A stretch of 40,168 bases of DNA from Przondovirus KP32i192. The stretch is taken from the sequence record OZ035748.1. One strand, given 5' to 3'. The position numbers were made by a program, and so were the translations under genes. Under the pieces are notes generated by a model, which saw only the letters and a program-made list of their open reading frames with translations, was not told the DNA's origin and searched no databases. Below are positions 4,761 to 10,918 of this stretch, piece after piece. Numbering within the stretch: the first letter of the stretch is position 1; the number at the start of each line of letters is the position of its first letter.

Positions 4761-5777
4761 ATGAACTACACCGACATGCAAGAACGCTTAGACGTCATCC
4801 GTAACCTGCCAATCTGTGAACTCGACAAGCGCCAGCCGCTGCTGGTAGCACTCATCGCGGACATTGTGAACTGCGAGACGTCCGATGGTGACGACACGGA
4901 TAGCGATTGGGGTCTGGAGCGACAGGACTACTGGCAAACCCTGAAGATTAAGGCCAAAGACGCTGGGTTTAACCTGCTGGGCAATGGACACTTCAGCGCA
5001 GCGTTTAAGCACGAGCTGCTACCGGGTAGGGTCATTAAGGTTGGCTTTAAGAAAGAGGATTCAGGGGCCGCATACGTGGCTTTCTGCCGGATGCACCAAG
5101 GCCGGGCAGGCATCCCTAACGTCTATCACGTAGCGCGTCACGCTGGGTGCTATACGGTGGTACTTGATGAGTTGGAACCATGCAAGCGCAGCAGTAACCA
5201 CTTGCACGACCACTACGCAGACCTCGCGTATTATTTTGTCGAGTGTGACTATGAGCCTGAGGAGCACCACGAGAAGGACTTACCGTTCATTGAGACGTGC
5301 CAGATGATTCGGGACTTCTTCTGTGGGATTGCATCCTTCGATATGCACAGCGGTAACATCATGTTCACCAAAGACGGCAAGCCAGTGATTACCGACCCGG
5401 TGTCATTCTCGGCGGACCGGGACCGTGAGCCTTTCTCACTGGAACCTGAGGAGCTACTTGCTGAGATTGAGCAGATAGCGCACGACAAGATGATTGAACG
5501 CTGCAAGCGCAACAAGGCTAAGCGTGACCCGAACGGAGCGCTGCGCATCGCACGGCGTAAGGCCAATAAGGAGCGTCGAGCACGCCGTAAGGCGCACGCT
5601 AGGTGGCGTAAGGAGCGTGAACGTGAACGTGAGCAGTATCACGTAGACGCCCTAAAGTTAGACCTAGCGAGTGTCGAGGAGCGCATTCTGGCGTGGCAAA
5701 TGGGTCCCGGCCTAGCGATACAAATGGGCAAGCCGTTGCCAATCGACAACTACCTTCAGGGTAGACTTATGGGTTAG
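4761..5777 (+). CDS. Serine/threonine protein kinase and host transcription shutoff protein (T7 gp0.7-like)
   Basis: 338-aa ORF; long identical blocks with recalled T7 gp0.7 (LPICELDKRQ, GNGHFSAA, RVIKVGFKKEDSGAAY, GIASFDMHSGNIMF). Confidence 0.85.
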   Translation: MNYTDMQERLDVIRNLPICELDKRQPLLVALIADIVNCETSDGDDTDSDWGLERQDYWQTLKIKAKDAGFNLLGNGHFSAAFKHELLPGRVIKVGFKKEDSGAAYVAFCRMHQGRAGIPNVYHVARHAGCYTVVLDELEPCKRSSNHLHDHYADLAYYFVECDYEPEEHHEKDLPFIETCQMIRDFFCGIASFDMHSGNIMFTKDGKPVITDPVSFSADRDREPFSLEPEELLAEIEQIAHDKMIERCKRNKAKRDPNGALRIARRKANKERRARRKAHARWRKEREREREQYHVDALKLDLASVEERILAWQMGPGLAIQMGKPLPIDNYLQGRLMG

Positions 5778-5791
5778 CAAGGTGTATCTTA

Positions 5792-5813
5792 GGTGTCTCC
5801 CGCAAGAGGCACC
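5792..5813 (+). promoter_or_regulatory. RNA hairpin in gene 1 leader (candidate R1 processing site)
   Basis: GGTGTCTC ccgcaa GAGGCACC: 8-bp stem (one G-U), 6-nt loop, no following U-tract so not an intrinsic terminator. Confidence 0.3.
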
Positions 5814-5846
5814 GATAGATAAACTTTATTCACAAAGAGGCACACA

Positions 5847-8567
5847 ATGAACGCATTAAACATTGCACGTAATGACTTCTCAGAGATTGAACTGGCCGCT
5901 ATTCCGTACAACATCCTCAGCGAGCACTACGGGGACAAGCTGGCACGTGAGCAGTTAGCACTGGAGCATGAGGCGTACGAGCTGGGTGAGCAGCGTTTCC
6001 TGAAGATGTTAGAACGTCAGGTGAAAGCTGGAGAGTTCGCTGACAACGTGGCCGCTAAGCCGCTGGTCCTAACGTTGCACCCGCAGCTGACCAAGCGCAT
6101 TGACGATTGGAAGGAGGAACAAGCAAACGCTCGTGGTAAGAAGCCTCGCGCATACTACCCGATTAAGCACGGCGTGTCCTCAGAGCTGGCCCTCAGTATG
6201 GGCGCTGAGGTACTCAATGAGAAGCGCGGAGTGTCCAGTGAGGCAATCGCACTGCTGACCATTAAGGTCGTCTTAGGGACGCTCACAGACGCCTCCAAGG
6301 CAACCATCCAGCAGGTATCCTCTCAGTTAGGCAAGGCTCTTGAGGATGAGGCCCGCTTTGGTCGTATCCGTGAGCAGGAAGCCGCCTACTTCAAGAAGAA
6401 CGTAGCGGACCAGCTGGACAAGCGTGTAGGCCACGTGTACAAGAAGGCTTTCATGCAGGTCGTCGAGGCCGATATGATTTCCAAAGGGATGCTGGGTGGG
6501 GACAACTGGTCCAGCTGGAAAACTGACGAGCAGATGCATGTGGGGACCAAGCTGCTTGAGCTACTCATCGAGGGCACTGGTCTGGTGGAAATGACCAAGA
6601 ACAAGATGGCCGATGGCTCCGACGATGTGACCAGTATGCAGATGGTCCAGCTGGCTCCGGCCTTTGTGGAACTCCTGAGCAAACGAGCGGGAGCACTCGC
6701 AGGTATCAGCCCGATGCACCAACCATGCGTAGTCCCTCCGAAACCTTGGGTGGAGACCGTAGGCGGTGGCTACTGGTCAGTCGGTCGCCGCCCGCTGGCG
6801 CTGGTTCGTACCCACTCCAAGAAGGCACTGCGCCGCTACGCAGACGTGCACATGCCCGAGGTATACAAAGCGGTAAACCTCGCGCAAAACACGCCGTGGA
6901 AGGTGAACAAGAAGGTGCTGGCGGTAGTCAACGAGATTGTCAACTGGAAGCACTGCCCGGTTGCTGACGTCCCGGCGATTGAACGCGAAGAGTTACCACC
7001 ACGCCCGGACGATATCGACACCAACGAGGTGTCACGCAAGGCATGGCGCAAGGAGGCCGCAGCGGTCTACCGTAAGGACAAGGCCCGCCAGTCTCGCCGT
7101 TTGTCAATGGAGTTCATGGTCGCACAGGCCAACAAGTTCGCTAACCACAAGGCCATCTGGTTCCCGTACAACATGGACTGGCGCGGACGTGTGTACGCTG
7201 TGAGCATGTTCAACCCGCAGGGTAACGACATGACCAAGGGTATGCTGACGCTGGCCAAGGGTAAGCCAATCGGTCTCGACGGGTTCTACTGGCTGAAGAT
7301 TCACGGTGCAAACTGTGCAGGCGTCGACAAGGTTCCATTCCCTGAGCGCATCAAGTTCATCGAAGAGAACGAGGGTAACATTCTGGCGAGCGCAGCAGAC
7401 CCGCTGAATAACATTTGGTGGACACAGCAAGATTCACCGTTCTGTTTCTTGGCGTTCTGCTTTGAGTACGCAGGCGTTAAACATCATGGCCTGAATTACA
7501 ACTGCTCGCTGCCGCTGGCATTCGATGGGTCATGCTCTGGGATTCAGCACTTCAGCGCGATGCTCCGCGATTCCATCGGTGGTCGTGCGGTTAACCTGCT
7601 GCCTTCTGATACTGTGCAGGATATCTACAAGATTGTGGCCGACAAGGTTAACGAGGTGCTTCACCAGCACGCTGTCAACGGGTCTCAGACGGTGGTCGAG
7701 CAGATTGCTGATAAAGAGACTGGCGAGTTCCGCGAGAAAGTAACACTGGGTGAGTCCGTGCTGGCTGCTCAGTGGTTGCAATATGGCGTGACCCGTAAGG
7801 TGACTAAGCGTTCGGTCATGACGTTGGCGTACGGTTCCAAAGAGTTCGGCTTCCGCCAGCAAGTTCTGGAAGACACCATTCAGCCTGCTATTGACAATGG
7901 CGAGGGCTTGATGTTTACGCACCCTAACCAAGCGGCTGGCTACATGGCTAAGCTGATTTGGGACGCTGTGACCGTGACCGTAGTGGCCGCTGTCGAGGCA
8001 ATGAACTGGCTGAAGTCTGCCGCTAAGCTGCTGGCTGCTGAAGTCAAGGACAAGAAGACCAAAGAGGTGCTGCGTAAGCGCTGCGCAATCCACTGGGTAA
8101 CACCCGATGGCTTCCCGGTGTGGCAGGAGTACCGCAAGCAGAACCAAGCGCGCCTGAAGCTGGTCTTCCTCGGGCAGGCCAACGTCAAGATGACGTATAA
8201 CACTGGGAAGGACTCAGAGATTGATGCCCACAAGCAGGAATCCGGCATAGCTCCTAACTTTGTTCACTCACAGGACGGTAGTCACCTACGCATGACCGTA
8301 GTACACGCCAACGAGGTCTACGGGATTGACTCCTTCGCACTCATTCACGACTCCTTCGGGACCATTCCGGCTGACGCTGGGAATCTCTTTAAGGCAGTCC
8401 GTGAGACGATGGTCAAGACCTACGAGGACAACGATGTGATCGCTGACTTCTACGACCAGTTCGCTGACCAGCTGCACGAGTCTCAACTGGACAAGATGCC
8501 AGCTGTTCCGGCCAAAGGTGACCTGAATCTGCGAGACATCTTGAAGTCAGACTTCGCGTTTGCGTAA
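5847..8567 (+). CDS. Single-subunit DNA-dependent RNA polymerase (T7 gp1-like)
   Basis: 906-aa ORF; collinear with recalled T7 RNAP along the full length, including the active-site region (LPLAFDGSCSGIQHFSAMLRD) and C-terminal FAFA. Confidence 0.95.
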   Translation: MNALNIARNDFSEIELAAIPYNILSEHYGDKLAREQLALEHEAYELGEQRFLKMLERQVKAGEFADNVAAKPLVLTLHPQLTKRIDDWKEEQANARGKKPRAYYPIKHGVSSELALSMGAEVLNEKRGVSSEAIALLTIKVVLGTLTDASKATIQQVSSQLGKALEDEARFGRIREQEAAYFKKNVADQLDKRVGHVYKKAFMQVVEADMISKGMLGGDNWSSWKTDEQMHVGTKLLELLIEGTGLVEMTKNKMADGSDDVTSMQMVQLAPAFVELLSKRAGALAGISPMHQPCVVPPKPWVETVGGGYWSVGRRPLALVRTHSKKALRRYADVHMPEVYKAVNLAQNTPWKVNKKVLAVVNEIVNWKHCPVADVPAIEREELPPRPDDIDTNEVSRKAWRKEAAAVYRKDKARQSRRLSMEFMVAQANKFANHKAIWFPYNMDWRGRVYAVSMFNPQGNDMTKGMLTLAKGKPIGLDGFYWLKIHGANCAGVDKVPFPERIKFIEENEGNILASAADPLNNIWWTQQDSPFCFLAFCFEYAGVKHHGLNYNCSLPLAFDGSCSGIQHFSAMLRDSIGGRAVNLLPSDTVQDIYKIVADKVNEVLHQHAVNGSQTVVEQIADKETGEFREKVTLGESVLAAQWLQYGVTRKVTKRSVMTLAYGSKEFGFRQQVLEDTIQPAIDNGEGLMFTHPNQAAGYMAKLIWDAVTVTVVAAVEAMNWLKSAAKLLAAEVKDKKTKEVLRKRCAIHWVTPDGFPVWQEYRKQNQARLKLVFLGQANVKMTYNTGKDSEIDAHKQESGIAPNFVHSQDGSHLRMTVVHANEVYGIDSFALIHDSFGTIPADAGNLFKAVRETMVKTYEDNDVIADFYDQFADQLHESQLDKMPAVPAKGDLNLRDILKSDFAFA

Positions 8568-8577
8568 GGTCTCGGGC

Positions 8578-8600
8578 AATTAGGGCACACTATAGGGAAC
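8578..8600 (+). promoter_or_regulatory. Phage RNAP promoter (phi1.1A-like)
   Basis: AATTAGGGCACACTATAGGGAAC; transcript starts with a 10-bp hairpin GGGAACCTTCG/CGAGGGTTCC. Confidence 0.7.
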
Positions 8601-8660
8601 CTTCGAATGACCGAGGGTTCCATTACTTAAAGTCTTAACTTAAAGAATACTTAAAGAGGC
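8595..8660 (+). other. Candidate primary replication origin region (promoter plus AT-rich tacttaaag repeats)
   Basis: 5' hairpin followed by three copies of (t/a)acttaaag at 8624, 8637, 8648; in T7 the primary origin is the promoter/AT-rich region just downstream of gene 1. Confidence 0.3.
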
Positions 8661-8665
8661 ACACC

Positions 8666-9226
8666 ATGACTTACTCAATCGTTGTAACCATCTTGTTAAT
8701 CGTATTAATCATCCTGTTAGTAAGGGCCGTCACACGACTCGGTGCCTGCGAGTACGCCCTTGAGAAGCAAGCCAAGAGCAACGAGGAGTACACAGACGGC
8801 TTGCACGATAAGGTCTGCCGCCTGTCTGACGATAAGGTATCACTCAATAAGCAGGTGCGGTGGTTAGAGAGCGAGCTTGAACACGAGAAGCAGAAGGTAC
8901 GCGATGTGAACGAACTACGGGAACGCCAGCGGGACCGCATGAAGTTCCTCCGCAAGTCCCTCAAGGAAGCACAAGATGAGCTGATGATGGTCTCCGACCT
9001 GATTCACGTTAAGTTCACCGCTGTGTTGCCGGACGGTACCCACTCCAAGACGCTCTTTAAGTTAGGACTTGGGCCGTGTGGCCTGCACGTTAAGTCCCTC
9101 CGCTGGACCGAGCTGGATGACCGCTATCTGATAGACCAGCTGTGCACCAACGGTGAGCGCAAGCAGTTCGTTTATTACAAGAGCGAAGTAGTGGGACGCA
9201 TCGAGTTCCGCCACGGTAAGATTTAA
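8666..9226 (+). CDS. Hypothetical protein, N-terminal TM helix plus coiled coil (no T7 counterpart; gene 1.05 position)
   Basis: 186-aa ORF with aagagg RBS; hydrophobic N-terminus IVVTILLIVLIILLV followed by charged heptad-rich region; no similarity to T7 proteins I can recall. Confidence 0.6.
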   Translation: MTYSIVVTILLIVLIILLVRAVTRLGACEYALEKQAKSNEEYTDGLHDKVCRLSDDKVSLNKQVRWLESELEHEKQKVRDVNELRERQRDRMKFLRKSLKEAQDELMMVSDLIHVKFTAVLPDGTHSKTLFKLGLGPCGLHVKSLRWTELDDRYLIDQLCTNGERKQFVYYKSEVVGRIEFRHGKI

Positions 9227-9247
9227 TTAGGACCCACTATCAGGAAC
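9225..9247 (+). promoter_or_regulatory. Degenerate phage promoter-like element (phi1.1B position)
   Basis: AATTAGGACCCACTATCAGGAAC: upstream -17 to -2 matches consensus but -1/+1 is C/A instead of A/G. Confidence 0.35.
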
Positions 9248-9248
9248 A

Positions 9249-9285
9249 TACTCAAGGTCATCACGTTTGGTGGCCTTCATGAATG
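9249..9285 (+). promoter_or_regulatory. RNase III-type processing hairpin (R1.1-like)
   Basis: tactcAAGGTCATCACgtttGGTGGCCTTcatgaatg; shares ctcaaggtca / tggcctt motifs with sites at 288, 9773, 16538. Confidence 0.55.
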
Positions 9286-9315
9286 TCCCTTAATATCACA
9301 ATCAGGAGCAACACC

Positions 9316-9492
9316 ATGTATCAGAACACAATCAACTTTGAGCGCACCCGTGAACGTCAGCAGACAGAGGGTTACATCCCTAAGGGCCGCAAGCTGAACA
9401 AGACGAAGCGCGGTGGTGGGGTGAAGGGTTCCTTCCGTAACGCTAAGGGTGACAGCGTTGTTAACCAAGAGAAATACTTCGTGGGAGCGTAA
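9316..9492 (+). CDS. gp1.1-like small basic protein
   Basis: 58-aa product contains KGRKLNKTKR as in recalled T7 gp1.1; aggag RBS 7 nt upstream. Confidence 0.55.
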   Translation: MYQNTINFERTRERQQTEGYIPKGRKLNKTKRGGGVKGSFRNAKGDSVVNQEKYFVGA

Positions 9493-9495
9493 CAA

Positions 9496-9753
9496 ATGGC
9501 TACGGAAAAAAGATGGCTTTTCGATGGGAGCACCTCACAATGGTCTCGTTTAGGAGCAGCGGAGCGTAGACTACTGGATACGACAGGACTGCACGTGGTC
9601 ATGCTTGACGACCCATTCACTAACACCGTGCTGTTCAACGTATTCGAGCCACGCGGGTCACTTCTAATAAGTAAGCGGTTCAGCCACTGGTCGATTGACT
9701 CAGCGTCAGACTGGCTGGCAAAACTCGCAGCTGACTACTCAAGCTGGCAGTAA
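9496..9753 (+). CDS. gp1.2-like protein (possible host dGTPase inhibitor) by size and position
   Basis: 85-aa ORF, same length and position as T7 gp1.2; sequence similarity weak. Confidence 0.45.
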   Translation: MATEKRWLFDGSTSQWSRLGAAERRLLDTTGLHVVMLDDPFTNTVLFNVFEPRGSLLISKRFSHWSIDSASDWLAKLAADYSSWQ

Positions 9754-9774
9754 TTAGGACACACTATAGGCAGA
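9752..9774 (+). promoter_or_regulatory. Phage RNAP promoter (phi1.3-like)
   Basis: AATTAGGACACACTATAGGCAGA; +1 G at 9769. Confidence 0.65.
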
Positions 9775-9809
9775 CTCAAGGTCATCGGATTCCGGTGGCC
9801 TTTATGATT
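9773..9809 (+). promoter_or_regulatory. RNase III-type processing hairpin (R1.3-like)
   Basis: gactcAAGGTCATCGGattCCGGTGGCCTTtatgatt: 11-bp stem with two G-U pairs. Confidence 0.55.
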
Positions 9810-9853
9810 GCTTATTGCACACTAAATGAACACTACACTTCGGAGACATCGTC

Positions 9854-10918
9854 ATGATGAACATTAAGACTAATCCATTTAAGGCTGTATCATTCGTTCG
9901 CTCTGCTATCGAGAAGGCGCTGGAGACTTCCGGTTACCTCATCGCAGACACTAAGCACGATGGTGTGCGCGGTAACATCTGCGTAGACAACACGGCCAAC
10001 GCAGCGTGGCTCAGCCGGGTCTCCAAGACCATTCCGGCCCTTGAGCATCTCAACGGTTTCGACCAGCGCTGGAATAAGTTACTGAAAGATGACCGCTGGA
10101 TTTTCCCGGATGGCTTCATGCTTGATGGCGAACTCATGGTCAAAGGCGTGGACTTCAACACCGGGTCTGGTCTACTGCGCACCAAGTACCTGAAAGAAAA
10201 GAACATGAAGTTTGACACCCGCGCCCTTCTTGACTTCGATAAGAAGCTGTGGGGGACCAAAACTCCATTCCGCCTACAGACGGGCAAACTCAAAGTTGTC
10301 CTCTATGATATCATTCCGCTTGACATTATCGAGTCCGGTGATGACTACAACGTGATGACCCTCCTCCGCCTTGAGCACGTCAAGGTAGCCTTACCAGTCC
10401 TGCAAGACCACTTCCCTGAAGTCGAGTGGTGCCTCTCGGAGTCCCATGAAGTTTACGACATGGACGAACTCGATGCGCTTTACCGACAGAAACGCGAAGA
10501 AGGTCACGAAGGTCTGGTGGTTAAGGACCCTCAGGGCATCTACAAGCGCGGTAAGAAGTCCGGCTGGTGGAAACTGAAGCCAGAGAACGAGGCTGACGGT
10601 GTCGTTGTGGGACTCAACTGGGGAACTCCCGGTCTTGCCAACGAGGGCAAGGTGATTGGCTTCGAGGTACTCCTTGAGTCTGGTCGCGTGGTATCCGCCA
10701 ACAACATCTCTCAGGCACTTATGGAGGAGTTTACCTCCGCATGGCTCAACGCTAACACCGAGGACTTCACAGGAACAACAGCGCCAAACCCAGTGAACCC
10801 TTACGAAGGCTGGGCGTGCCAAATCAAGTACATGGAGGAAACTCCAGATGGCTCTCTGCGTCACCCGTCGTTCGACAAATGGCGTGGCACTGAGGCTGAC
10901 CCGACCATAAAGATGTAA
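9854..10918 (+). CDS. ATP-dependent DNA ligase (T7 gp1.3-like)
   Basis: 354-aa ORF; N-terminus MMNIKTNPFKAVSFV and adenylation motif KYDGVRG match recalled T7 ligase. Confidence 0.92.
   Translation: MMNIKTNPFKAVSFVRSAIEKALETSGYLIADTKHDGVRGNICVDNTANAAWLSRVSKTIPALEHLNGFDQRWNKLLKDDRWIFPDGFMLDGELMVKGVDFNTGSGLLRTKYLKEKNMKFDTRALLDFDKKLWGTKTPFRLQTGKLKVVLYDIIPLDIIESGDDYNVMTLLRLEHVKVALPVLQDHFPEVEWCLSESHEVYDMDELDALYRQKREEGHEGLVVKDPQGIYKRGKKSGWWKLKPENEADGVVVGLNWGTPGLANEGKVIGFEVLLESGRVVSANNISQALMEEFTSAWLNANTEDFTGTTAPNPVNPYEGWACQIKYMEETPDGSLRHPSFDKWRGTEADPTIKM

What the first reader, a model, noticed from the sequence alone, without database searches (positions are those of the whole stretch)
8666..9226. 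Uncharacterised membrane-anchored coiled-coil protein inserted between RNA polymerase and gp1.1
T7 has only origin and promoter sequence between gene 1 and gene 1.1. Here a 186-aa ORF with a good RBS, one N-terminal TM helix and a long charged coiled-coil region is inserted, flanked by a consensus promoter upstream and a degenerate promoter-like element at its 3' end. Early-region inserts in T7-like phages are typical sites for host-takeover or anti-defence genes, but I recognise no homolog.
Basis: partly seen in the sequence, partly recalled or inferred. Interest (0 to 1): 0.6.

Follow-up and report, generated by a model that had tools for sequence, protein, structure and literature searches.

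The report
Gene 1.05 of a K11-like phage
The ORF is real, but it is the already catalogued gene 1.05 of T3/K11-type phages: a dispensable, probably membrane-anchored coiled-coil protein that ends in a conserved small beta-barrel found only in phages, and whose function nobody has tested.

Summary
**Observation: confirmed.** Window 8666-9226 (+) is a 186-aa ORF with a good ribosome-binding site. It has one N-terminal membrane helix and a 90-residue stalk with unbroken heptad periodicity. A consensus phage promoter lies upstream and a second promoter overlaps the stop codon.

**Interpretation: only partly right.**
- The window is a Przondovirus (K11-like Klebsiella phage), 99.7% identical over the queried 1-kb stretch (8500-9500) to Kp_Pokalde_002.
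- The ORF is gene 1.05, annotated "gp1.05 fusion protein" in K11 and KP32.
- Its C-terminal 75 residues are Pfam PF25755 (T3 gene 1.05 protein).
- The "degenerate" 3' element is identical to K11's annotated phi1.1 promoter.

**What the family looks like.**
- It is phage-only.
- It has three architectures: membrane helix + coiled coil + barrel, coiled coil + barrel, and barrel alone (as in T3).
- Charge distribution predicts N-out/C-in, so the barrel faces the cytoplasm.
- Within Przondovirus the barrel is 94% conserved. Stalk residues 20-60 form a mosaic cassette of at least 8 alleles, while total length stays at 186-187 aa.
- Assemblies with frameshifts and one with a 393-nt in-frame deletion suggest the gene is dispensable.

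**Function.** No functional study was found. My best inference, at low confidence, is a membrane tether that holds a conserved cytoplasmic partner through the invariant GPCG loop.

**Verdict.** The gene is already known and its function is open. Interest is modest.

The parts
8578..8600 (+). Phage RNA-polymerase promoter phi1.05 (AATTAGGGCACACTATAGGGAAC); transcription start (+1 G) at about 8595.
   Evidence: The core has 0 mismatches to the consensus, with 11 sites in the window against 0 expected. The sequence is identical to the K11 promoter annotated phi1.05.
8596..8621 (+). 5' stem-loop at the start of the phi1.05 transcript (10-bp stem, GGAACCUUCG/CGAGGGUUCC).
   Evidence: The 71-nt leader (8595-8665) that contains this stem folds at -20.6 kcal/mol, z = -3.6, and 0 of 200 shuffles fold as well. 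DNA conservation is 95-99% across 42 Przondovirus loci.
8622..8665 (+). AT-rich leader with three ACTTAAAG repeats (8625-8632, 8638-8645, 8649-8656) and the ribosome-binding site AAGAGG (8654-8659). Probable counterpart of the T7/T3 primary replication origin.
   Evidence: GC content is 37% at 8600-8699, and conservation is 96-99%. T3 annotates its primary origin at the equivalent place, overlapping the start of gene 1.05. The T7 phi1.1B leader carries similar AACTTTAAG/CTTAAG motifs. Origin function is inferred, not shown.
8666..9226 (+). Gene 1.05 coding sequence, 186 aa plus stop.
8672..8725 (+). N-terminal membrane helix (residues 3-20). Predicted N-out/C-in signal anchor.
   Evidence: Hydropathy is 3.26. 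All 53 membrane-helix-bearing family representatives have an uncharged N flank of about 2.6 aa and about 2.9 K/R in the 15 residues after the helix.
8726..8995 (+). Coiled-coil stalk (residues 21-110; about 13 heptads).
   Evidence: A single heptad register runs throughout, matched by 1 of 500 shuffles. AlphaFold2 gives one continuous helix over residues 2-108.
8702..8890 (+). Mosaic, hypervariable cassette (about residues 13-75: the end of the membrane helix plus the membrane-proximal half of the stalk).
   Evidence: DNA majority identity is 0.60-0.72 in most 15-nt blocks here (up to 0.82), against 0.9-1.0 in the flanks, across 42 loci. Residues 20-60 have mean pairwise identity of 46% (minimum 5%) and form 8 clusters at 60% identity, while protein length stays at 186-187 aa.
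8996..9223 (+). C-terminal gp1.05 domain (residues 111-186): a six-stranded small beta-barrel with an invariant GxGPCG loop (G134-G139).
   Evidence: PF25755 at 92.7 bits against a cutoff of 27. The AlphaFold2 domain model has pLDDT 92.7. Invariant residues are listed. Mean pairwise identity within Przondovirus is 94%.
9225..9247 (+). Promoter phi1.1 (AATTAGGACCCACTATCAGGAAC), overlapping the stop codon of gene 1.05.
   Evidence: Identical to K11's annotated phi1.1. T3-group phages have promoters with the same -1 C / +1 A start, such as CTAACAGGAGA. T3 phi1.1 likewise overlaps the gene 1.05 stop.
9242..9290 (+). Hairpin in the gene 1.1 leader, at the position of the T3 R1.1 RNase III site. It likely marks the 3' end of processed gene 1.05 mRNA.
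   Evidence: The 71-nt stretch 9242-9312 that contains this 10-bp stem folds at -17 kcal/mol; z is only -1.6. T3 annotates R1.1 at the equivalent place. The T7 phi1.1A leader has a similar CTCAAGGTCAT...GTGGCCTT hairpin.

Best explanation
**Shown.** This is gene 1.05 of a K11-like Przondovirus. It is transcribed from the consensus promoter phi1.05, and its leader occupies the place of the T3/T7 primary replication origin. The protein has three modules:
- an N-terminal membrane helix;
- a stalk of about 90 residues with unbroken heptad periodicity;
- a C-terminal 75-residue small beta-barrel (Pfam PF25755) with an invariant GxGPCG loop.

The barrel family was found only in phages. It also occurs without the membrane helix, and as the bare domain (T3).

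**Inferred.**
- The helix inserts N-out/C-in.
- The stalk forms a parallel homo-oligomeric coiled coil that holds the barrels roughly 13 nm into the cytoplasm.
- The barrel is the effector. It binds a partner present in essentially every T7-like infection, either a phage replication/transcription component or a universally conserved host factor.
- In Studiervirinae the added anchor and stalk localise or sequester that partner at the inner membrane.
- The protein improves infection but is not essential.

The closest functional analogy is the membrane-anchored, coiled-coil early protein p16.7 of phage phi29, which organises replication at the membrane.

**How likely.** Identity is about 0.97, cytoplasmic topology about 0.75, and the tether/sequestration mechanism about 0.4.
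For: **Identity**
- PF25755 at E=1.4e-26; full-length PHROG 6440 at E=5e-93.
- Annotated as gene 1.05 in K11, KP32, Kvp1 and T3, at the same locus with the same flanking promoters.
- 100% protein identity to a deposited Klebsiella phage.

**Architecture**
- AlphaFold2 full-length model at pLDDT 95: helix 2-108 plus six strands 112-183.
- Unbroken heptad register.

**Cytoplasmic orientation**
- 53 of 53 membrane-helix forms obey the positive-inside rule for N-out/C-in.
- 38 short and 11 long family representatives have no membrane helix or signal peptide at all, so the domain works in the cytoplasm.

**The barrel is the effector**
- It is the only part shared by all 108 family clusters, with invariant F, G, G, P, C, G, Q, K, F, Y, G, R positions.
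- It is 94% conserved within Przondovirus while the stalk varies.

**The partner is common to T7-like infections**
- The domain occurs in T7-like phages of Klebsiella, Escherichia, Pseudomonas, Ralstonia, Delftia, Aeromonas and Sphingobium.
- In every related locus inspected it lies in an early or DNA-metabolism module. It sits directly after the RNA polymerase gene, directly before it in another lineage, or between DNA polymerase and 5'-3' exonuclease.

**Dispensable**
- T7 lacks the gene.
- Assemblies with a frameshifted gene and one with an in-frame deletion exist.
Against: - No experiment exists for any family member.
- No partner has been identified.
- The domain is not consistently basic: median pI is 7.8-8.5, and a third of the short forms are acidic. 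This weakens a nucleic-acid-binding version.
- Topology, oligomeric state and stalk length in nanometres are predictions only.
- The mosaic cassette is not explained by a pure spacer role.
- Cassette alleles show no linkage to alleles of the neighbouring genes 0.7, 1.2 or 1.3 that could point to a phage-encoded partner.
- The frameshifts could be sequencing errors.
Confidence: 0.4

Rival explanations
1. Strain-specific host-takeover or anti-defence factor. The protein neutralises or evades a variable, membrane-associated host component (for example an abortive-infection or exclusion protein at the inner membrane). The hypervariable juxtamembrane cassette is the arms-race interface.
For: - It lies in the early region next to gp1.2, which is annotated in T3 and T7 as dGTPase inhibitor and target for F exclusion.
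- It is probably non-essential and variably present. Kvp1 and Berlin differ at gene 1.05.
- Residues 20-60 fall into at least 8 deeply diverged alleles inside otherwise roughly 95%-identical genomes. Such a pattern points to recombinational exchange of old alleles, as is usual for loci under diversifying selection.
Against: - The effector-like barrel is the most conserved part and is shared by phages of very different hosts. That is atypical for anti-defence proteins.
- The whole early region is mosaic: gp1.2 identity to the window protein ranges 61-100% and gp0.7 ranges 77-97%. The cassette may therefore reflect general recombination plus tolerance of a coiled coil to substitution.
- The only match to defence-system models is a weak one of the helical part to ZorB (E=4.5e-4), best explained by the shared membrane-helix-plus-helical composition rather than homology.
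- No anti-defence library was available to search.
Confidence: 0.25
2. Superinfection exclusion. An early inner-membrane protein whose cytoplasmic domain blocks genome entry by a second T7-like phage, for example at the cytoplasmic exit of the ejection channel or at transcription-driven internalisation.
For: - Early expression from the consensus phi1.05 promoter.
- The predicted bitopic inner-membrane topology resembles that of some known exclusion proteins of other phages (my own knowledge, not tested here).
- A target common to T7-like phages would explain conservation of the barrel within this phage group.
Against: - Many family members lack any membrane anchor (49 of 104 representatives), including T3.
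- In the Sphingobium-type phages the gene sits inside the replication module.
- There is no similarity to any described exclusion protein.
Confidence: 0.1
3. Periplasmic or lysis-related protein. An N-in/C-out anchor with a periplasmic coiled coil, like the i-spanin Rz, or a lipoprotein processed at the LGAC sequence (residues 25-28).
For: - Weak PHROG hits of the helical part to an Rz-like spanin (E=0.2) and to an endolysin family (E=0.003).
- The sequence L25-G-A-C28 resembles a lipobox.
Against: - The charge distribution is the opposite of N-in in 53 of 53 homologues.
- The gene is in an early or DNA-metabolism module, not a lysis cassette, in every related locus inspected.
- The domain exists without any export signal.
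- The LGAC motif is absent from most cassette alleles.
- The weak hits are coiled-coil composition matches.
Confidence: 0.03
4. The reading frame is incidental. The region is kept for its cis-acting elements (origin, promoters, RNase III site), and the protein has no function of its own.
For: - The promoter, the leader and the first 30 nt of the gene are conserved at 94-99% at the DNA level, including synonymous positions.
- T3 annotates its origin as overlapping the 5' end of the gene.
- The gene tolerates disruption.
Against: - The barrel is conserved as a protein down to about 30% identity, with invariant residues, in 108 clusters and in other genomic positions.
- It gives a confident fold.
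- The ORF length is held at 186-187 aa across unrelated cassette alleles.
Confidence: 0.02

Closest known systems
gp1.05 'fusion protein' of Klebsiella phages K11 (YP_002003794) and KP32 (gp05, YP_003347523)
   Same: An orthologue. It sits at the same locus between gene 1 and gene 1.1, with the same phi1.05 and phi1.1 promoters (phi1.1 is identical), the same length (186 aa) and the same three modules. The C-terminal half is nearly identical.
   Different: Only the mosaic cassette (about residues 13-75) differs. This window carries the 'VRAVTRLGACEYALEKQAKSNEEYTD' allele, whereas K11 and KP32 carry others. No function is known for any of them.
Phage T3 gene 1.05 protein (NP_523302; Pfam PF25755 Phage_T3_1_05)
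   Same: The C-terminal barrel is homologous (34.7% identity over query residues 84-180; FKLGLGPCG motif). The locus is the same, after phi1.05 and the annotated primary origin, and the stop codon likewise overlaps phi1.1.
   Different: The T3 protein is 90 aa. It has no membrane helix and no coiled coil, only a roughly 20-residue amphipathic-looking N-terminus. The window protein is the long form.
Phage phi29 early protein p16.7 (analogy only; from my own knowledge of the literature, not checked with tools)
   Same: An early, non-essential phage protein with an N-terminal membrane anchor, a coiled coil and a C-terminal functional domain facing the cytoplasm. It organises phage DNA replication at the membrane. 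It is the nearest described 'works like' model.
   Different: There is no sequence or fold relationship: the p16.7 C-domain is helical, whereas this one is a beta-barrel. DNA binding is not supported here. phi29 uses protein-primed replication.
Sm/Hfq-like and WYL small beta-barrels (Hfq, Gemin6/7, BrxR/CapW/DriD WYL domains, SspB)
Rz-type i-spanins and ZipA-type bitopic anchors
   Same: A single N-terminal membrane helix followed by a long helical or linker region and a distal domain.
   Different: Spanins are N-in/C-out and sit in lysis cassettes, paired with an o-spanin. Here the predicted topology is the opposite and the gene is early. ZipA shares only the predicted N-out/C-in topology (my own knowledge); there is no homology.

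Membership tests
Pfam PF25755 (Phage_T3_1_05) / gene 1.05 of T3-K11-type phages | Profile score above the curated gathering threshold. | tested here: met
   92.7 bits against a cutoff of 27, E=1.4e-26, residues 112-182 covering profile positions 2-72 of 73.
Pfam PF25755 (Phage_T3_1_05) / gene 1.05 of T3-K11-type phages | Conserved core motif F-x-L-G-x-G-P-C-G plus Q...K-x-F-x-Y...G-R. | tested here: met
   The window has F131-K-L-G-L-G-P-C-G139, Q158, K166, F168, Y170, G177 and R178. These positions are invariant or nearly so in alignments of long and short forms.
Pfam PF25755 (Phage_T3_1_05) / gene 1.05 of T3-K11-type phages | Position directly downstream of the phage RNA polymerase gene, between promoters phi1.05 and phi1.1 and ahead of genes 1.1, 1.2 and 1.3. 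| tested here: met
   Gene order in the window is 0.7, 1, 1.05, 1.1, 1.2, 1.3. The promoters are identical to the K11 annotations. The same order holds in the roughly 50 related loci that carry the RNA polymerase gene upstream of the match.
Przondovirus long-form gp1.05 (PHROG 6440) | Full-length match including the membrane helix and the stalk. | tested here: met
   phrog_6440 at E=5.3e-93 over residues 1-186 of 186. 120 listed homologues of 186-187 aa (apart from a few fragments or variants) share the MTYSIVVTILLI start.
phi29 p16.7-like membrane organiser of replication | N-terminal membrane anchor plus coiled coil, with the C-terminal domain in the cytoplasm. | tested here: met
   Predicted only: hydropathy and the positive-inside rule, heptad analysis and the AlphaFold2 model.
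phi29 p16.7-like membrane organiser of replication | C-terminal domain binds DNA and replication proteins. | tested here: inconclusive
phi29 p16.7-like membrane organiser of replication | Sequence or fold homology to p16.7. | tested here: not met
Rz-type i-spanin | N-in/C-out topology with a periplasmic coiled coil. | tested here: not met
   53 of 53 homologues have an uncharged N flank of about 2.6 aa and a K/R-rich C flank.
Rz-type i-spanin | Location in the lysis cassette with a partner o-spanin. | tested here: not met
   The gene lies in an early or DNA-metabolism module in every related locus inspected. The PHROG spanin hit has E=0.2.
Known anti-phage defence components (PADLOC) | Profile match to a defence-system protein. 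| tested here: not met
   Only weak matches to the helical part, the best being ZorB at E=4.5e-4 and 17.9 bits over residues 5-101.

The most novel reading that the evidence does not exclude
gp1.05 is a length-calibrated membrane tether that recruits the T7-type transcription/replication machinery, or the replicating origin next to which it is encoded, to the inner membrane. That would make it a T7-group counterpart of phi29 p16.7. Its freely reassorting juxtamembrane cassette would then adapt the tether to variable host membrane partners or let it escape membrane-associated exclusion systems. If so, this would reveal a spatial-organisation layer in the best-studied phage family that T7 itself has lost.
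Probability: 0.15. Interest if true: 0.6.

Novelty: already known. Interest (0 to 1): 0.3.

Why it matters
Gene 1.05 is one of the few genes in the early/DNA-metabolism region of T3/K11-type phages for which I found no functional study. It sits on the presumed primary replication origin, and tblastn finds a match in 504 deposited phage records, including 336 from Klebsiella phages, many of them being developed for therapy.

Knowing what a membrane-anchored, phage-only beta-barrel does early in infection could explain differences between T7 and its relatives in replication organisation, exclusion or host range.

The anatomy worked out here makes the question directly testable:
- predicted cytoplasmic topology;
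- an invariant GPCG loop;
- a fixed-length stalk with an exchangeable cassette;
- assemblies that already carry deletions or frameshifts in the gene.

As a scan finding, however, it is a rediscovery of an annotated gene family.

Tried and rejected
3. **Foldseek against viral models.** It returned only uncharacterised proteins of T7-like phages.
4. **AlphaFold database library.** It was not installed.
5. **Sequence and profile searches of PDB chains.** Nothing appeared below E of about 0.2 for the single sequence or about 1 for the profile.
6. **NCBIfam and PADLOC.** Only coiled-coil composition hits.
7. **Second word-indexed protein search with the domain alone.** It returned only 9 truncated Przondovirus proteins and added little, apart from exposing the disrupted variants.
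8. **Walker-A reading of GLGPCGK(T).** Rejected, because the K is L in this window and R/Q/L elsewhere, and the T is not conserved.
9. **Lipobox reading of L25-G-A-C28.** Rejected, because it is absent from most cassette alleles and is preceded by arginines.
10. **Nucleic-acid binding judged from charge.** Not supported consistently.
11. **Phage-encoded co-evolving partner.** Tested by allele linkage between the cassette and gp0.7, gp1.2 and gp1.3. The adjusted Rand index was about 0, so there is no signal. The first attempt timed out.
12. **Cellular homologues.** A pattern scan of 185,579 species genomes found 5 matches. Only 2 are real: a phage-like Sphingobium contig and a 549-bp contaminant scaffold.
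13. **Rfam scan of 8300-10000.** Nothing relevant.
14. **Seven literature searches.** They found only genome-annotation tables that mention gp1.05; none reports a function.
Full report
**1. What the window is**

The 1-kb stretch around the finding (8500-9500) is 99.7% identical to Klebsiella phage Kp_Pokalde_002. It is 92-98% identical to the other Klebsiella phages among the best matches, which belong to the genus Przondovirus (K11-like, Studiervirinae). The local gene order is protein kinase 0.7 (4761-5777), RNA polymerase gene 1 (5847-8567), the ORF in question (8666-9226), gene 1.1 (9316-9492), gene 1.2 dGTPase inhibitor (9496-9753) and ligase 1.3 (9854-10918).

**2. Check of the observation**

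- The ORF runs from ATG 8666 to TAA 9224-9226 and encodes 186 aa.
- AAGAGG lies 6 nt upstream of the ATG.
- Residues 3-19 are strongly hydrophobic, with a mean hydropathy of 3.26.
- Residues 21-110 keep one unbroken heptad register with L/V/I/M at the a and d positions. Only 1 of 500 shuffles does as well.
- AlphaFold2 models residues 2-108 as one helix at very high confidence.
- The upstream promoter core at 8581-8598 is a perfect copy of the phage consensus. It is one of 11 sites in the window; none are expected by chance.
- The 3' element at 9225-9247 has four mismatches to that core. It is nevertheless identical to the promoter annotated phi1.1 in K11. Its CACTATCAGG start resembles promoters listed for T3-type phages, such as CTAACAGGAGA.
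- T7 has only 184 bp with phi1.1A and phi1.1B between genes 1 and 1.1. These two promoters are the T7 primary origins (PMC8373140).

**3. What it is**

The ORF is gene 1.05.

- K11 annotates the orthologue as "gp1.05 fusion protein" between promoters phi1.05 and phi1.1. KP32 annotates it as "fusion protein, other name gp1.05". Kvp1 annotates it as gene 1.05, "similar to C-terminus of T3 gene 1.05 protein".
- Pfam PF25755 (Phage_T3_1_05) matches residues 112-182 at 92.7 bits against a threshold of 27. PHROG 6440 matches the full length.
- tblastn finds a match to the protein in 504 phage records. One Klebsiella phage encodes a protein 100% identical over 185 residues.

Among relatives of T3, K11, Berlin and others the gene is the rule, and T7 is the one without it.

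The T7 leaders look like the same parts in a different arrangement:
- The T7 phi1.1A leader hairpin resembles the window's phi1.1 leader hairpin.
- The AT-rich T7 phi1.1B leader (AACTTTAAG, CTTAAG) resembles the window's phi1.05 leader (ACTTAAAG three times).

**4. Anatomy of the protein**

The AlphaFold2 model built on 44 diverse homologues has a mean pLDDT of 95. It shows one helix over residues 2-108, followed by six beta-strands over residues 112-183. A domain-only model built on 46 sequences has a pLDDT of 92.7.

An exhaustive profile-free search of 1.84 billion representative proteins found 108 family clusters. They fall into three architectures:

| Architecture | Clusters | Length |
|---|---|---|
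| Membrane helix + coiled coil + barrel | 53 | 120-220 aa, most 160-200 |
| Long form without a membrane helix (mostly coiled coil + barrel) | 11 | 120 aa or more |
| Barrel alone | 38 | about 75-105 aa (T3 gp1.05 is 90 aa) |

Two further short proteins (under 120 aa) carry an N-terminal membrane helix directly ahead of the barrel.

Conserved across all of them is F-x-L-G-x-G-P-C-G, then Q, K-x-F-x-Y and G-R.

All 53 membrane-helix forms have an N-terminal flank of about 2.6 uncharged residues and about 2.9 Lys/Arg in the 15 residues after the helix. By the positive-inside rule this predicts N-out/C-in. Together with the many export-signal-free forms, this places the barrel in the cytoplasm.

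**5. Fold**

- Foldseek against viral models returns only uncharacterised proteins of T7-like phages of Klebsiella, Dickeya, Pectobacterium, Salmonella, Pseudomonas, Ralstonia, Delftia and Aeromonas.
- PDB sequence and profile searches are empty.
- The domain is not consistently basic.

The fold class is therefore clear, a small SH3/Sm-type barrel, but no ligand can be inferred from it.

**6. Genomic context across the family**

- In Studiervirinae the gene follows the RNA polymerase gene directly.
- In another lineage, whose RNA polymerase is 50-56% identical, a short form lies directly upstream of the polymerase gene. Some of these carry an insertion of about 50 aa inside the barrel.
- In high-GC contigs of 44-46 kb, one of which is binned with a Sphingobium genome, a short form lies between a family-A DNA polymerase and a 5'-3' exonuclease.
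- It was not seen in a lysis or structural module in any locus inspected.
- A pattern scan of 185,579 bacterial and archaeal species genomes found only that Sphingobium phage-like contig and a 549-bp contaminant scaffold. On this evidence the domain is phage-only.

**7. Variation within Przondovirus**

Across 42 loci, DNA conservation is as follows:

| Region | Majority identity |
|---|---|
| Promoter core, leader hairpin, ACTTAAAG repeats and first 30 nt of the gene | 0.94-0.99 |
| 8695-8889 | 0.60-0.82 (most blocks 0.60-0.72) |
| 8890-9219 | 0.83-1.0 (most blocks 0.9 or above) |

At protein level, across 120 sequences:

| Residues | Mean pairwise identity |
|---|---|
| 111-186 | 94% |
| 20-60 | 46% (minimum 5%), 8 clusters at 60% |

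Total length stays at 186-187 aa in all but a few of the listed homologues. Diverged alleles this old, sitting inside otherwise roughly 95%-identical genomes, point to recombinational exchange of a cassette. The fixed length points to a constraint on stalk length and heptad register.

Cassette alleles are not linked to alleles of gp0.7, gp1.2 or gp1.3 (adjusted Rand index about 0). Those genes are themselves mosaic.

The near-perfect DNA conservation of the leader and first codons fits a cis-acting element. T3 annotates its primary origin at exactly this position.

**8. Dispensability**

- One assembled genome of about 41 kb splits the gene by a frameshift (L083). Another locus has a homopolymer frameshift (L069).
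- A genome of about 40 kb carries a 393-nt in-frame deletion between two GAGCGCAAG repeats. It leaves a 55-aa remnant while keeping both promoters (L084).
- T7 lacks the gene altogether, and T3 keeps only the barrel.
- The Kvp1 paper lists gene 1.05 among the regions that differ from phage Berlin (PMC2579914).

The gene therefore looks like an accessory gene, although some of the frameshifts could be sequencing errors.

**9. Mechanism**

*Shown:* identity, architecture, conservation pattern and context.

*Inferred:*
- a parallel coiled-coil homo-oligomer anchored N-out/C-in in the inner membrane;
- a barrel acting as the effector through the invariant GPCG loop;
- a partner common to T7-like infections, because the barrel is conserved across phages of gamma-, beta- and alpha-proteobacteria and always lies in an early or replication module;
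- an anchor and stalk, added in Studiervirinae, that localise or sequester this partner at the membrane.

I put this tether model at about 0.4.

The main rival, at about 0.25, is a strain-specific anti-defence or takeover factor in which the variable cassette is the interface. Superinfection exclusion (about 0.1), a periplasmic or lysis role (about 0.03) and an incidental ORF (about 0.02) are less likely, for the reasons given in the rival entries. The remaining probability is for functions not listed.

**10. Comparison with known systems**

Membership in PF25755/gene 1.05 is met on every testable criterion. The phi29 p16.7 analogy concerns architecture and timing only. Fold homology was tested and not met, and DNA binding is unsupported. 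Spanin membership fails on both topology and location. Affiliation with Sm/WYL barrels is inconclusive.

**11. Literature**

Searches for gene 1.05, gp1.05 and the Pfam name found only annotation tables. Broader searches on accessory genes of T7-like phages, on Przondovirus and on the T3 origin found no functional study.

**12. Verdict**

The object is an already annotated, widespread gene family of unknown function.
- the three-architecture picture;
- the predicted cytoplasmic topology;
- the invariant GPCG loop;
- the fixed-length mosaic stalk cassette;
- assemblies in which the gene is disrupted or deleted.

Interest is modest (0.3). The most novel reading not excluded is a T7-group membrane organiser of replication/transcription with an arms-race cassette. 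It has a probability of about 0.15 and would deserve an interest of about 0.6.

Noticed in passing
window 8625-8656: There are three direct ACTTAAAG repeats in the AT-rich phi1.05 leader, conserved at 96-99% across 42 Przondovirus loci. They resemble the AACTTTAAG/CTTAAG motifs in the T7 phi1.1B leader (the T7 primary origin) and sit where T3 annotates its origin. This is probably the K11-type primary origin, but it is unannotated in the records seen.
   Followed up: partly
window 9496-9753 (gene 1.2) and 4761-5777 (gene 0.7): Across closely related Przondovirus loci, gp1.2 (dGTPase inhibitor) is 61-100% identical to the window protein and the gp0.7 kinase is 77-97% identical. The RNA polymerase and gp1.1 between them stay at 97-99% and mostly 93-100% respectively. 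Alleles of the gene 1.05 cassette, gp1.2 and gp0.7 reassort independently (adjusted Rand index about 0). The early region is therefore a fine-grained mosaic.
   Followed up: partly
L084 1501-1668; L083 1263-1821; L069 about 5460-6090: Natural gene 1.05 variants exist in assembled genomes of about 40 kb. One is a 393-nt in-frame deletion between two GAGCGCAAG repeats, leaving a 55-aa remnant. Two others are frameshifted copies. They may be real knock-outs or sequencing errors.
   Followed up: partly
L075, L080, L082 (about 5850-6410); also L067, L073, L076-L079, L081: In a lineage of T7-like contigs whose RNA polymerase is 50-56% identical to the window's, the gene 1.05 domain gene lies directly upstream of the polymerase gene rather than downstream. 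In L075, L080 and L082 the barrel carries an insertion of about 50 residues between strands.
   Followed up: no
L010 8181-8681; L018 / L087 (Sphingobium sp. CCH11-B1 contig, 19,089 bp): High-GC podophage-like contigs carry a short gene 1.05 domain between a family-A DNA polymerase and a 5'-3' exonuclease. L010 also encodes a protein with the dATP/dGTP diphosphohydrolase N-terminal domain (PF18909), a family known from phages with modified purines. One such contig sits in a Sphingobium genome assembly.
   Followed up: no
L089 (Flammeovirga aprica JL-4 scaffold419, 549 bp); proteins P0128 and P0053: Przondovirus gene 1.05 sequence appears in assemblies labelled Flammeovirga aprica, Pseudomonas aeruginosa and Escherichia coli. 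For the 549-bp scaffold, phage DNA contaminating the bacterial assembly is the likely explanation. For the E. coli record the contig is a whole phage genome of about 41 kb.
   Followed up: no
window 9283-9492: The longest ORF for gene 1.1 starts at 9283 (69 aa). However, the start annotated in the near-identical GenBank record is ATG 9316 (58 aa), which has the ribosome-binding site CAGGAG at 9303-9308. The mechanical ORF start is probably not the real one.
   Followed up: partly
window 8666-9226, residues 134-139: The invariant loop G-x-G-P-C-G contains the G-P-C of the thioredoxin active-site motif C-G-P-C, and thioredoxin is the host processivity factor of T7-type DNA polymerase. The folds are unrelated, so this may be coincidence. 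It was not tested.
   Followed up: no
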